This document shows positions 38,801-41,800 of a stretch of DNA of 64,000 nucleotides, piece by piece. Where the stretch lies: NCBI RefSeq assembly GCF_054482595.1, contig NZ_CM137008.1. One strand, written 5' to 3'. Each line of letters starts with the position of its first letter. Position 1 is the stretch's first letter. The position numbers were made by a program.

Positions 38801-41800
38801 GTAACCACCTCGCGGTTAATTTCTTCCAGGATATCTTTTTCCGGCGTATGCCGGGCAGCTGTGAGAGTTTCCTTGCTGGGGTTCTCGTGATCAGTTTCCG
38901 TCAAATAGGCGTTGATATACCCCTGAAGGCGTCCCGGGTAGTGATAAAATTCAGGGTGTGCGCTTCGGATAAGTGCAAAAATAGCGGCGCGGGAATAGTC
39001 CAGAATACCCGGGGTTGCACGAAGTGCTGCGGACCATTCTTTGAACGGACTTTCTTTGTTCAGGACTACTTCTTTTGCGCGACGATAAACGCTGCCCGGA
39101 ATTTCATAAATATTAAAATCCATCGGAAGTGTGGCTGCTGCAATCTCCACATCCAGTGTGTCGAGGGTGTGTACTAAATTCGGATTGCGATCGGTTTTGT
39201 TCCCACCGCCAGCATTAGCACCGGAAGCCGTGCGGGTGATGCGTGAAACACGATTTCCTTTCATCCACTCTTTTGTCAGCAGACCCCGATCAGTGTAGTC
39301 AGCGTCCAGGTATGCTTCGAAAAAAGCAGTTATTAGTCCCAGGTCTGAATTACCAGGATTAGGGAAAACTTTGTCAGTGTCACGAACCAGTTTGTGGAGG
39401 TCGCGAATCTCCAGCGAGTCGAGCAGACTGGTTTTATGCGAAATAGCCAGGGCAGTAACAGCCGGTAGTTCTTCAGCCCGTGCAATGTGTAATGCCTGGA
39501 GTTCGTCGCGTGAAACGTGCGTTACTGGTTTTTCGCTGCCGTGTTGAGCAAGCCAACGAATGGGCAGTTCCTGACCGGAGACAGGCAGAAGCATGCTCTC
39601 CTCAATCTCAGTCATGTCTTCGCCGTTGATGTTGGTATTGTCAGTGCTGGCTGGTTTGTCCTGAACAGAGGGGGAAGGGCCGATAAATGTCATTGTGATG
39701 CCATCTTTCCCGCCTTTTTCATAGCGGTTGCAGAATTCAGTATCAAACACGCCTTCTGGCGGAAGGTCGTCAACAACGGGCAAATTGACGCGGACGGGTT
39801 TTTTAAAGTCGTCTTCATCATAATCGTTGTCATCCATTGCGGTAATGCAGCGGGAGATTGCAACAGATAATTTTTTTGCTGTAGTCCAGTAAAAACCACC
39901 TTTAATTCCCAGGCGTTTTCTTACTTTGTCATTTTTTGCTTCGCAATATAGTGCAAATTCTTCTTTATCAGTGCTCATTATTGGTAAACCTCATCACAGA
40001 TTTAAGGGTGAACAAATCTCTGCCATTGCTGACATATAAGAATGAAACTGGATATTTATTACGGTGCTGTTTTAAAATCCTGCCGGGATTTCGTTATTAT
40101 CCTGGTGAATAACTTTATCGACCGGATAACAGTTGCCTGGAATTTTCTGTTCGGTTGCTGCTGCCATACATTCCTGCTTTGTTCTGTGAACACTGACTGC
40201 AATATCAACTGGCTCTCCGGAAACAAGAAAAACCGTCAGAATAAGTGCAAATACTGGATTCATTGTGCACATCCTTTTGGCATCATACGTAAACGGGCCA
40301 GCATTGAAACAATGCATACTTTATTTAATAACTCCCGTTCGTGTTTTCTTTTGTTAATGGCATCTTCAGTAAATACAGGATTACTGATAGTGACACCAAT
40401 TTCAAAACAACCTTCAGACGTATTAACGTTTGGTAATAACGTTTTCATTATCGCGCCCTCAACAATGAGTTTTGTGATGCGGTGCCTGGTGCCTCCAGGT
40501 GACGTTAACCAGTTAACAATTAACGCCGGATACAGAGAATCCACCCATAACACTGTTTTTGGTTTTAACTGTTCCGCGTGCGCTTAGCCGCATTCACCGC
40601 ATCACAAAATTCACTTTAAAAAGGGCGGCAGAGCAGTCACGGAGTAAAACTGATACCGCCAAACGTCACCAGAAAATTGATAACAGAGGGCGTTGCAGCG
40701 GGGTTGTCACTTAAGCGTATGGTCAACCTGACAACCCGGTGTCCTCAACGGGGAAGGAATAACCCCGCCATACTTACCGCCGCGCCATTTCGCGGAGTGC
40801 CACAACCGGAAGCGCACGGTCGACGAAAATTTAACGACAGGCTATCTATGAACCAGCTACCTCGCCGTGCGCTTTCGCGTTATGGTCTGACTTTTCAGGG
40901 AAATATCCTTTCAGTAAACTGTCAGTGCCGGATGCTCACCCGTGTCCGGCGCACGCACTCCACCTCACCCGTGGAGAACTCCTTAATTACCAACCTTAGC
41001 TTCGTTGGTTAGCTATTAACGCGGGTATGTAATCATTCTGGCAATGCTTAATGCCGCTGCTTTTTCCAGATTGGTGATATCCTGCTCCAGAGCGGACAGA
41101 TTTTCAGCCTGCTTAGCCCTGGCTTCATTAGCCCATTTCAGATCCTGCGCTGCATTAATTTTCTGGCGCATCCACTCATAAAGTTCATCATCGGTATAGT
41201 CTGGCGCGATTATGACGGGTTCTCGTTTCTGCATGTCAGCTCCTTGTGGTTCGCATTGCCTGCTTTTAACCACGTCAGGCGAGGTGGTATCCTCTGAGGG
41301 GTCTGTTACTCGAGAGGAAATTGGTTATGAATACAATCAAGTTTTCTTGCCCAGAATGTGGTGGCGAAGTCTTTGACACATCCTTTAAGCCGCAGGGCTC
41401 TGACAGTTTCGCGGGAGCCATCTGCAAAAATTGTGGTCACCTTGTAACTGAAGATGAGTCCTCGCAGTTCGATGACGAAATCGTTGACAATATCTTCGGT
41501 GCACTCACCAGAGACTTTCTGAAATAAAGACGCATACCGCTTAGTTACCGCTCTGATAACTCTTACCTGTCCGGCAATGGCGCTGATGTCAATATAAAGC
41601 GCCATTGCTGCTTCTTTGCCGATCCCGTGATGCCTTCCATTCTGATGTTTGACTTCGCCCACTGAGAAATCCTCTGTTTCCCCTTAACGCCGGGGTAGCG
41701 GAACAAAAACCTGCTGCATAGTTATTAAAGTTGGACCCTGCCGTCATGTTCTTACGCCTCGGGCTGGCTACTTAACCCCTGACCACTGCCTGGTAACTCG

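What the first reader, a model, noticed from the sequence alone, without database searches (positions are those of the whole stretch)
40554..41015. ORF-poor, structured ~460-bp segment within the leftward early operon
There is no convincing ORF with an RBS, but there are several stable hairpins (GCCGGA...TCCGGC, CTCCAC...GTGGAG). It could encode a small RNA or carry antitermination/processing signals.
Basis: inference. Interest (0 to 1): 0.35.

Follow-up and report, generated by a model that had tools for sequence, protein, structure and literature searches.

The report
DicF small RNA and its precursor
The ORF-free, hairpin-rich stretch is the well-studied dicF locus of a Qin-like E. coli prophage, encoding the DicF small RNA that blocks cell division plus the structured leader it is cut from, so it is real but already known, apart from one conserved RNA domain inside it whose role has not been explained.

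Summary
Window 40554-41015 has no conserved reading frame and folds better than shuffled sequence on the transcribed (minus) strand (z -3.3).

The segment is the ydfC-dicB intergenic region of a dicBF (PL-like) operon and is 98% identical to E. coli K-12 Qin. It contains the 53-nt sRNA DicF at 40623-40675(-), scoring 76.7 bits in Rfam against a threshold of 48. DicF is identical to the K-12 copy.

Upstream of DicF lie a hairpin at 40810-40874 that matches the published RNase III cut (5' end of the "190-nt DicF"), then a 115-nt domain, then an A/U-rich single strand carrying the RNase E site. There is no evidence for nut- or put-type antitermination.

One is not conserved, and the other is no better than chance thermodynamically.

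The one thing not already explained is the 115-nt domain at 40692-40806(-), called M2 here. It has four helices plus a probable pseudoknot. Twelve base pairs covary across Escherichia, Citrobacter, Trabulsiella, Izhakiella and phage P1. It occurs in 4,416 of 5,426 complete E. coli genomes, is never annotated, and is always followed by a variable "seed" and an intrinsic terminator.

Verdict: already known locus, low interest, with one modest unexplained sub-feature.

The parts
41016..41234 (-). ydfC, the last coding gene before the non-coding stretch. Its 3' UTR is the segment under study.
   Evidence: RefSeq annotates ydfC at the corresponding position in an identical copy in E. coli SMS-3-5 and in K-12. 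ORF list.
40958..40976 (-).
   Evidence: Present in the sequence. dG -10.5, z -2.8. Replaced or degenerate in variant loci such as the L107 and L049 types, so not conserved.
40927..40950 (-).
   Evidence: Present. z -1.0, with 28 of 200 shuffles as stable. The stem sequence is conserved in DicF-type loci while the loop changes (GGGUGAGCA to GGAUAAGAA). No compensatory change was seen.
40810..40874 (-). Long hairpin, probable RNase III substrate. The base helix is AAGCGCACGG-CGA / UCG-A-CCGUGCGCUU (13 bp with one bulge) and the apex is variable. The 5' end of the 190-nt DicF species maps to about 40812.
   Evidence: Fold. The apex is the most variable part of the spacer (12 variable sites and a 3-nt indel in 30 nt; different apices). 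The position comes from counting 190 nt back from the DicF 3' end. It is consistent with the sequence shown in Fig. S1B of PMC10448788. The exact nucleotide is inferred, not read.
40692..40806 (-). M2, a conserved 115-nt structured RNA domain that forms the body of the 190-nt DicF precursor. It comprises closing helix P1 (GUUGUGGC/GCUGCAAC), hairpins H1 and H2 (H2 hypervariable with a pyrimidine-rich loop), hairpin H3, and a probable pseudoknot between the H1-H2 linker (GGU..GUAUGG) and the H3 loop (CCAUACGCU).
   Evidence: The MFE of the isolated domain gives P1, H1, H2 and H3. In alignment A4 (22 distinct sequences from five genera plus P1), 96.4% of cells are paired against at most 53% when partners are slid. 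Twelve pairs change on both sides, reached by 0 of 500 shuffles. Covariance model R1 scores 167 bits and finds a single copy in the window. It has the fewest variable sites in the spacer after DicF.
40676..40691 (-). Single-stranded A/U-rich linker (GCCCUCUGUUAUCAAU) carrying the RNase E cleavage site that creates the DicF 5' end.
   Evidence: Unpaired in the fold. AAU|UUU fits the RNase E preference (my own knowledge). RNase E dependence of the 53-nt species is shown in K-12 (PMC10448788).
40623..40675 (-). dicF, the 53-nt Hfq-dependent sRNA. It has a 15-nt unpaired seed and a terminator hairpin, with a U-tract at 40618-40622.
   Evidence: Rfam RF00039, 76.7 bits against a gathering score of 48, full length. 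Identical to K-12 b1574. Fold z -2.2.
40471..40611 (-). Structured 5' UTR of dicB, similar to STnc100. Its 11-bp outer helix (40595-40605 with 40474-40484) is the likely second RNase III site, giving the 72-nt DicF 3' end at about 40604.
   Evidence: Sub-threshold Rfam STnc100 match (38.8 bits against 47, E 6e-6). The helix appears in the fold. The 72-nt species is reported in review PMC9438474. Assigning the site to this helix is my inference.
40260..40448 (-). dicB, the cell-division inhibitor and next gene of the operon, expressed only by read-through of the DicF terminator.
   Evidence: Pfam DicB PF05358, 133.5 bits. RefSeq annotation.

Best explanation
The segment is the non-coding ydfC-dicB spacer of the dicBF operon of a Qin-like lambdoid prophage, read on the minus strand.

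Transcription starts at the repressor-controlled PL-like promoter and runs through ydfC into a structured 3' UTR. RNase III cuts the long hairpin at 40810-40874, giving a 190-nt RNA made of the M2 domain, a linker and DicF. RNase E then cuts the exposed A/U-rich linker at about 40675/40676. This releases the 53-nt DicF, whose 3' end is set by its own intrinsic terminator (40618-40660). Polymerases that read through the terminator go on to express dicB.

DicF pairs through its unpaired 5' seed, with Hfq, to ftsZ, manX, xylR and pykA mRNAs (and pchA in EHEC). It inhibits cell division and adjusts metabolism.

What is shown here: identity and position of DicF, dicB and ydfC, absence of coding potential, and covariation in M2. 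What is taken from published K-12 experiments: the RNase III and RNase E dependence and the RNA sizes. What is inferred: the exact cleavage coordinates, and my proposal that M2 acts as a folded scaffold. On that view M2 keeps the linker and seed single-stranded and presents a 5'-monophosphate end that promotes RNase E cutting.
For: - Rfam DicF match, full length, 76.7 bits, E 3.4e-16.
- 98% identity over 591 nt to the K-12 ydfC-dicB region, with the 53 nt of dicF identical.
- Same gene order as K-12 Qin and E. coli SMS-3-5: ydfC, spacer, dicB, DUF1482/ydfD, exonuclease, integrase.
- Pfam DicB 133.5 bits and DUF1482 87 bits.
- Phage Tritos annotates DicF at the homologous position.
- No coding frame.
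- No sigma-70-like promoter on the minus strand between ydfC and dicF, matching the published finding of no internal promoter.
- The published 190-nt (RNase III), 53-nt (RNase E) and 72-nt species fit the hairpin, the linker and the outer helix found here.
- The linker and the DicF seed are unpaired in the folds.
- M2 is under structural selection.
Against: - No expression or processing data exist for this particular strain. Everything on RNase III and RNase E is transferred from K-12.
- The window differs from K-12 upstream of ydfC. ydfA and ydfB are replaced by a different segment with a plus-strand zinc-ribbon ORF, so the promoter-proximal part of the operon and its regulation may differ.
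- The proposed RNase III base helix is only 13 bp, and a few variant loci carry mismatches in it.
- The scaffold role for M2 is a proposal with no direct test.
Confidence: 0.93

Rival explanations
1. The M2 domain, and so the bulk of the segment, is a cis-acting regulator of transcription elongation. Once transcribed it would let RNA polymerase read through the DicF terminator immediately downstream, acting like put or like an attenuator or riboswitch. That would set the ratio of terminated DicF to dicB expression. DicF processing would be secondary.
For: - In every one of nine downstream cassette classes, M2 is followed within about 15-70 nt by an intrinsic terminator.
- In the three contexts inspected, co-oriented genes follow that terminator: dicB here, tRNAs and tciA (and, per the annotation of the Pban promoter and operator, ban) in P1, and early genes in phage Ayreon.
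- In P1 the domain sits about 45 nt downstream of the annotated P1ban -10 element.
- Read-through transcripts covering dicB exist in K-12.
- The structure is strongly conserved, with a probable pseudoknot.
Against: - There is no sequence or model similarity to the HK022 loci that contain putL and putR.
- The window has one copy, not one per early operon.
- M2 lies more than 800 nt from the promoter in the K-12 operon.
- The sequence between M2 and the terminator is hypervariable, which argues against a conserved antiterminator/terminator switch.
- The DicF terminator is imperfect with only 5 U, so leakiness needs no special factor.
- No ligand or partner is known.
Confidence: 0.15
2. The segment carries an independent small-RNA gene with its own promoter, rather than being processed from the operon transcript.
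For: DicF ends at its own terminator. In P1 the homologous domain is only about 45 nt from a promoter.
Against: - No promoter-like site on the minus strand between 40676 and 41015.
- Primer extension and RT-PCR in K-12 found no internal promoter, and both ends of the precursor depend on RNases.
Confidence: 0.05
3. The segment is the decayed remnant of a protein gene, for example an N-like antiterminator lost from this prophage lineage, and its hairpins are incidental.
For: N sits at a comparable place in the PL operon of lambda (my own knowledge). Some phage records carry automatic 'hypothetical protein' calls over the region.
Against: - No frame is conserved, and a 1-nt indel polymorphism lies in the middle of the only long ORF.
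- No codon periodicity and no Pfam match.
- Variation follows base-pairing rather than codons.
Confidence: 0.03
4. The hairpins form a nut-type site (boxA plus boxB) for a protein antiterminator.
For: Position in an early leftward operon. Several small GC-rich hairpins, one with a GAAA loop.
Against: - No boxA consensus (YGCUCUUWA) anywhere in the prophage part of the window. The three matches in 64 kb lie at 3.7, 5.5 and 15.6 kb, no more than chance.
- No N-like arginine-rich ORF in the operon.
- The small hairpins are not conserved in variant loci.
Confidence: 0.02

Closest known systems
dicF / dicBF operon of cryptic prophage Qin, E. coli K-12 (b1574; Rfam RF00039)
   Same: Same gene order, same 567-nt ydfC-dicB spacer at 98% identity, and an identical 53-nt DicF. 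The published processing scheme (190-nt RNase III product, 53-nt RNase E product, 72-nt read-through product) maps onto the structures found here.
   Different: The window's prophage looks largely intact (integrase, exonuclease, cI/cro-like genes, late-region tRNAs) and carries a different immunity region. It lacks ydfA and ydfB upstream of ydfC.
'dicF-like region' in the ban operon leader of phage P1 (AF234173 68472-68573)
   Same: Contains a homologue of the M2 domain (88.8 bits with model R1) with compensatory changes in H2, H3 and the pseudoknot, followed by an intrinsic terminator.
   Different: No DicF: Rfam finds none at E up to 1. The domain lies directly after a C1-controlled promoter instead of after an RNase III hairpin. 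The closing helix differs.
HK022 put RNAs (factor-independent processive antiterminators)
   Same: Structured nascent RNA in an early operon of an N-less lambdoid phage, located upstream of terminators that must be read through.
   Different: No sequence or covariance-model similarity. put is about 70 nt with two stems and has one copy per early operon close to the promoter (PMC9378689). M2 is 115 nt, has four helices plus a pseudoknot, and is single-copy.
3' UTR-derived or intra-operonic sRNAs released by RNase E (CpxQ, SroC, SdhX)
   Same: The sRNA shares its terminator with the upstream mRNA, and an endonuclease creates its 5' end (PMC9438474).
   Different: Here a discrete, covarying structured domain and an RNase III step come before the RNase E cut.
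Prophage anti-sRNAs AgvB and AsxR
   Same: A prophage sRNA family with a conserved terminator module and a variable 5' seed (PMC4104026), resembling the interchangeable seed cassettes seen downstream of M2.
   Different: AgvB and AsxR are 51-60-nt primary transcripts at the PR' moron site (PMC4104026). They have their own Rfam families (RF02702, RF02703; named), and Rfam reports no match to them here.

Membership tests
DicF sRNA (Rfam RF00039) | Match to the family covariance model at or above the gathering score | tested here: met
   76.7 bits against 48, model positions 1-52 of 52, E 3.4e-16.
DicF sRNA (Rfam RF00039) | Unpaired 5' seed identical to the experimentally characterised K-12 DicF, which pairs with ftsZ, manX, xylR and pykA | tested here: met
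   All 53 nt are identical to b1574. The first 15 nt are unpaired in the fold. Pairing to targets was not recomputed.
DicF sRNA (Rfam RF00039) | Intrinsic terminator hairpin followed by a U-tract | tested here: met
   GGCGGUAUCAG...CUG..CUGCCGCC followed by UUUUU. dG -15.9, z -2.2. The simple terminator scan misses it because of its 9-nt loop and internal bulge.
DicF sRNA (Rfam RF00039) | Location between ydfC and dicB in a repressor-controlled PL-like operon | tested here: met
DicF sRNA (Rfam RF00039) | [quoted passage not shown] | not testable with these tools
   Shown for the 98%-identical K-12 locus (PMC10448788; PMC9438474).
lambdoid nut site | boxA consensus upstream of a boxB hairpin | tested here: not met
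   No YGCTCTTWA in the prophage. The three matches in the window are more than 25 kb away and no more than chance.
lambdoid nut site | Cognate N-like arginine-rich antiterminator gene in the same operon | tested here: not met
   No such ORF between the cI-like gene and the exonuclease. Pfam finds only DicB, DUF1482 and weak zinc-ribbon matches.
HK022 put RNA | Sequence or structure similarity to putL/putR (about 70 nt, two stems) | tested here: not met
   Model R1 gives no hit at E up to 0.01 in the HK022 loci that contain putL and putR. Reading the sequences shows only short shared words.
HK022 put RNA | One copy downstream of each early promoter | tested here: not met
   Single M2 copy in the 64-kb window.
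HK022 put RNA | Suppresses terminators in cis by binding the RNA polymerase beta' zinc-binding domain | not testable with these tools
   Needs in vitro transcription.
STnc100 (Rfam RF02076) | Match at or above the gathering score | tested here: not met
   38.8 bits against 47, model positions 21-154 of 206, at 40471-40611(-).
protein-coding gene | A frame kept open in homologues with codon-periodic substitutions | tested here: not met
tRNA or tmRNA-like element | Cloverleaf detected by ARAGORN or Rfam | tested here: not met
   No gene in 40300-41300. No Rfam tRNA or tmRNA match there.

The most novel reading that the evidence does not exclude
The 115-nt M2 domain (40692-40806, minus strand) may be a distinct, so far undescribed class of structured phage RNA rather than passive precursor sequence. 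It would be a pseudoknotted four-helix module that phages and phage-plasmids (lambdoid prophages of several enterobacterial genera, and P1) place in front of an interchangeable 'seed plus terminator' cassette inside early operons. DicF would be just the commonest cassette. The module would have an active role: either directing RNase III/RNase E maturation and stability of whichever sRNA follows it, or controlling read-through of the terminator into the downstream genes.
Probability: 0.35. Interest if true: 0.55.

Novelty: already known. Interest (0 to 1): 0.25.

Why it matters
For the finding as posed, little changes. It correctly flags a non-coding regulatory stretch, but that stretch is dicF, one of the first bacterial sRNAs ever described, and it is present in most E. 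coli genomes.

There are two practical points. First, RefSeq/PGAP annotates nothing under the match in any of the E. coli records listed, and only the K-12 reference record carries dicF. A sequence-only reader, or an annotation pipeline, therefore sees a blank.

Second, about 60% of the DicF precursor is a domain under clear structural selection. It recurs with different seeds, and also in P1 without DicF. If that domain controls sRNA maturation or terminator read-through, it would explain how a toxic sRNA and a toxic protein (DicB) are apportioned from a single transcript. It would also define a reusable phage module for making new sRNAs.

Tried and rejected
- **AgvB-like anti-sRNA.** The CACAACA motif downstream of M2 in Ayreon-type loci suggested this. 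I rejected it because AgvB is a 51-60-nt primary transcript at the PR' moron site. Rfam, which has AgvB and AsxR families (named), reports nothing in the window, P1 or Ayreon loci. Part of the motif is also the 3' strand of helix P1.
- **put homology.** I located HK022 putL and putR. My first BLAST attempt failed because the locus files were not yet visible to the script. Reading the sequences and searching with model R1 both found no similarity.
- **Shared loop motif.** Variant loci have GGAUAAG in hairpin 2 and lose hairpin 1, so I dropped the idea.
- **boxA.** GUGCGCUU/GUGCUCUC just upstream of M2 looked boxA-like. It is the 3' strand of the upstream hairpin in both locus types, and it does not match the boxA consensus.
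- **tRNA-like cloverleaf for M2.** ARAGORN finds nothing.
- **Exact RNase III coordinate.** The relevant nucleotide is colour-coded in a figure and cannot be read from the text. The RNase III mapping paper gives no coordinate for dicF.
- **Covariation in the RNase III hairpin base.** There were too few variants. Some carry mismatches and none shows a clean compensatory change.
- **P1 genome paper (PMC523184).** Not held in the library.
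Full report
**What is at the coordinates.** Window 40554-41015 lies between two minus-strand genes. Upstream is an ORF ending at 41016, annotated ydfC in an identical copy in E. 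coli SMS-3-5 and in K-12. Downstream is a 62-aa ORF at 40260-40448 that matches Pfam DicB at 133.5 bits. Further downstream on the same strand are a DUF1482/ydfD gene, an 813-aa exonuclease and an integrase. Upstream are cI-like and cro-like genes. This is the layout of the dicBF operon of the cryptic prophage Qin. An alignment of window 40440-41030(-) with the K-12 ydfC-dicB region gives 98% identity with no internal gap. The 462-nt segment occurs in 4,596 of 5,426 complete E. coli genomes, up to ten times per genome, and PGAP annotates nothing under it.

The segment is non-coding by four tests:
- The only long ORF is a plus-strand, TTG-started 111-aa frame antisense to the operon. A 1-nt indel breaks it in 6 of 19 near-identical homologues.
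- The 50 variable sites in the ydfC-dicF spacer split 17/19/14 across the three codon phases.
- The longest sense-strand ORF is 36 aa.
- None of the four ORFs tested matches Pfam.

The segment folds better than dinucleotide shuffles on both strands. The sense strand has z -3.30 and the antisense strand z -2.78, with 0 of 100 shuffles as stable in each case. The full 567-nt spacer has z -4.9. The two named hairpins are not individually exceptional, at z -2.8 and z -1.0.

**What it is.** Rfam finds DicF (RF00039) at 40623-40674 on the minus strand. The match is full length at 76.7 bits against a gathering score of 48, E 3.4e-16. It is the only DicF match in the 64-kb window. Mapped through the alignment, the K-12 annotation (b1574, 53 nt) gives 40623-40675, and all 53 nt are identical. 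Phage Tritos annotates DicF at the homologous place.

Published work on K-12 shows the following (PMC10448788; review PMC9438474):
- DicF is processed from the polycistronic transcript that starts at dicBp.
- RNase III generates the 5' end of a 190-nt species.
- RNase E generates the 5' end of the 53-nt species.
- The 3' end comes from intrinsic termination.
- RNase III on read-through RNA gives a 72-nt species.
- There is no internal promoter.

My promoter scan likewise finds no promoter-like site on the minus strand between ydfC and dicF.

**Anatomy on the transcribed strand, 5' to 3'.**

1. Comparison with variant loci shows hairpin 1 is replaced or degenerate. Hairpin 2 keeps its stem but changes its loop, and no compensatory change is seen.

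2. 40810-40874 is a long hairpin. Its 13-bp base (AAGCGCACGG-CGA / UCG-A-CCGUGCGCUU) is conserved. Its apex is the most variable stretch of the spacer, with 12 variable sites and a 3-nt indel. Counting 190 nt back from the DicF 3' end lands at about 40812, in the 3' strand of this base helix. The sequence in Fig. S1B of PMC10448788 starts inside this hairpin. I therefore assign it as the RNase III substrate. The exact nucleotide is inferred.

3. 40692-40806 is a compact domain that I call M2, discussed below.

4. 40676-40691 is an unpaired A/U-rich linker (GCCCUCUGUUAUCAAU). It runs directly into the unpaired 15-nt DicF seed. This is where the RNase E cut must fall.

5. 40623-40675 is DicF, with its terminator hairpin and a U5 tract at 40618-40622.

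6. 40471-40611 is a structured dicB leader. It gives a sub-threshold match to Rfam STnc100 (38.8 bits against 47). Its 11-bp outer helix (40595-40605 with 40474-40484) begins exactly where a 72-nt DicF would end, at about 40604. I infer that this helix is the second RNase III site.

**The M2 domain.** BLAST against phage genomes showed that the spacer is a mosaic whose parts occur separately elsewhere. The part just upstream of DicF is shared with Stx2c phages and with phages Ayreon and 2H10. At 78% identity it is also shared with the P1 family, where it lies about 45 nt downstream of the annotated P1ban -10 element and overlaps a feature annotated 'dicF-like region'. Rfam finds no DicF in the P1 or Ayreon loci.

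I collected 126 copies from IMG/VR and 12 from species-representative genomes by pattern search, built a covariance model (R1), and realigned representative sequences. The model has a closing helix P1, hairpins H1, H2 and H3, and pairing between the H1-H2 linker and the H3 loop, which makes a pseudoknot.

On 22 distinct sequences from E. coli, E. albertii, Citrobacter, Trabulsiella, Izhakiella and P1:
- 96.4% of cells form standard pairs, against at most 53% when the 3' partners are slid by 1-3 columns.
- Twelve of 36 pairs change on both sides, reached by 0 of 500 shuffles.
- H3 has five such pairs, P1 four, H2 two, and the pseudoknot one.

H2 changes sequence and length freely (CGGGG/CCCCG, CUGGG/CCCAG, CCCGGG/CCCGGG, CGAGG/CCUCG and others) while keeping a pyrimidine-rich loop. 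A P1-like plasmid found by unbiased BLAST turns a U.G pair of the pseudoknot into C-G.

Two caveats apply. My search patterns fixed GCGGCGGTAAG and GGTTGACCAT, so the lack of variation in most pseudoknot columns says nothing. And the realigned alignment leans towards the model structure.

Within near-identical full-length homologues, M2 has fewer variable sites (2-3 per 30 nt) than the upstream spacer (3-12 per 30 nt), approaching DicF itself at 0-2. M2 occurs in 4,416 of 5,426 complete E. coli genomes at 9,465 places, 505 of them on plasmids, and none is annotated. It has one copy in the window and none in HK022. It gives no Rfam match, no tRNA-like call, and there is no nearby boxA.

**What follows and precedes M2.** In all 122 copies with enough flank, M2 is followed by 15-70 variable nucleotides and then an intrinsic terminator. 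The downstream sequences fall into nine classes:
- Canonical DicF, 67 copies.
- An Ayreon-type cassette with a different seed but a homologous terminator hairpin, 24 copies.
- A P1 type, 10 copies.
- A class with the DicF seed but a different terminator, 8 copies.
- Five rarer classes, 13 copies in all.

Upstream, DicF-type loci have the RNase III hairpin. Ayreon-type loci have a different long hairpin ending immediately before M2. P1 has a promoter. The recurring unit is therefore a defined 5' end, then M2, then a variable single strand, then a terminator.

**Mechanism.** The best-supported reading for the whole segment is the published DicF biogenesis pathway, mapped onto these coordinates (confidence 0.93).

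For M2 itself, I favour a maturation scaffold. It is a stable fold that leaves the linker and seed single-stranded. After the RNase III cut it carries a 5'-monophosphate a few nucleotides from helix P1, which should favour 5'-end-dependent RNase E cleavage at the linker. This is inference.

The main alternative is that M2 controls read-through of the terminator that always follows it, in the manner of put or an attenuator (confidence 0.15). The constant M2-terminator coupling inside operons favours this, as does the promoter-proximal position in P1. Against it are the absence of any similarity to put, the single copy, the hypervariable sequence between M2 and the terminator, and the intrinsically weak DicF terminator.

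An internal promoter, a decayed gene and a nut site are each unlikely.

**Novelty and score.** The finding as posed is already known: it is dicF and its processing leader. The antitermination option has no support. Interest is low (0.25).

What remains is M2. The papers I could read treat it only as the 5' part of the 190-nt precursor, or in P1 as a 'dicF-like region'. I could not access the 1990 processing paper or the P1 genome paper, so I cannot exclude that its secondary structure has already been drawn. I put 0.35 on it being an undescribed, functionally active phage RNA module. If true, that would be of moderate interest (0.55).

Noticed in passing
loci L004, L011, L046 and others (Ayreon type); L039, L037, L094, L096, L016, L027 (other types): Downstream of the M2 domain, the 'seed plus terminator' cassette comes in at least nine forms. 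Some keep the DicF terminator hairpin with a different seed. One keeps the DicF seed with a different terminator. The Ayreon type carries CACAACA, the GcvB-target consensus, though part of it is paired in helix P1. These may be undescribed DicF-like sRNAs with other targets.
   Followed up: partly
window 40471-40611 (-); L003 2842-2961 (+): The dicB 5' UTR gives a sub-threshold match to Rfam STnc100 (38.8 bits against 47). A similar sub-threshold match (33.4 bits) lies just upstream of tciA in phage P1. P7 and D6 share the sequence. A structured leader related to a prophage sRNA family seems to be reused in front of different small toxic or regulatory genes.
   Followed up: partly
window 41327-41527 (+): Where K-12 and SMS-3-5 have ydfA and ydfB, this prophage has an unrelated segment with a 66-aa CxxC...CxxC zinc-ribbon ORF on the opposite strand. 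It gives only weak, sub-threshold Pfam zinc-ribbon/DUF5795 matches. The early leftward transcript would run antisense through it.
   Followed up: partly
window 41853-41889 (-): A very strong terminator-like hairpin (16-bp stem followed by a U-rich tail) lies just downstream of the cI-like gene and upstream of the presumed PL-like promoter.
   Followed up: no
window 46264-46439 (+): Full-length Rfam match to the sok antitoxin RNA (112 bits against 59), implying a hok/sok-type toxin-antitoxin locus in the prophage.
   Followed up: no
window 15648-15723, 18057-18132, 19881-19956, 35041-35116; 36108-36197; 50019-50328: There are four tRNA-Asn(GUU) genes with the same Rfam score. A tRNA-Ser(CGA) gene sits about 350 bp from the prophage integrase end, so it is the likely attachment site. 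A cluster of four tRNAs (Met, Lys, Thr, Gly) lies inside the prophage.
   Followed up: no
L135, L137, L142, L143 (MAGs labelled Bacillota, Collinsella, Lachnospiraceae): Short contigs in metagenome bins assigned to Gram-positive taxa carry M2 copies nearly identical to the E. coli and P1 ones (92-157 bits). This most likely reflects binning contamination by enterobacterial phage DNA.
   Followed up: no
window 37537-39978 (-): The 813-aa 'exonuclease' has a C-terminal DnaQ-like exonuclease region preceded by about 600 aa of low-complexity, acidic, Q/E-rich sequence containing a CxxC...CxxC motif.
   Followed up: no
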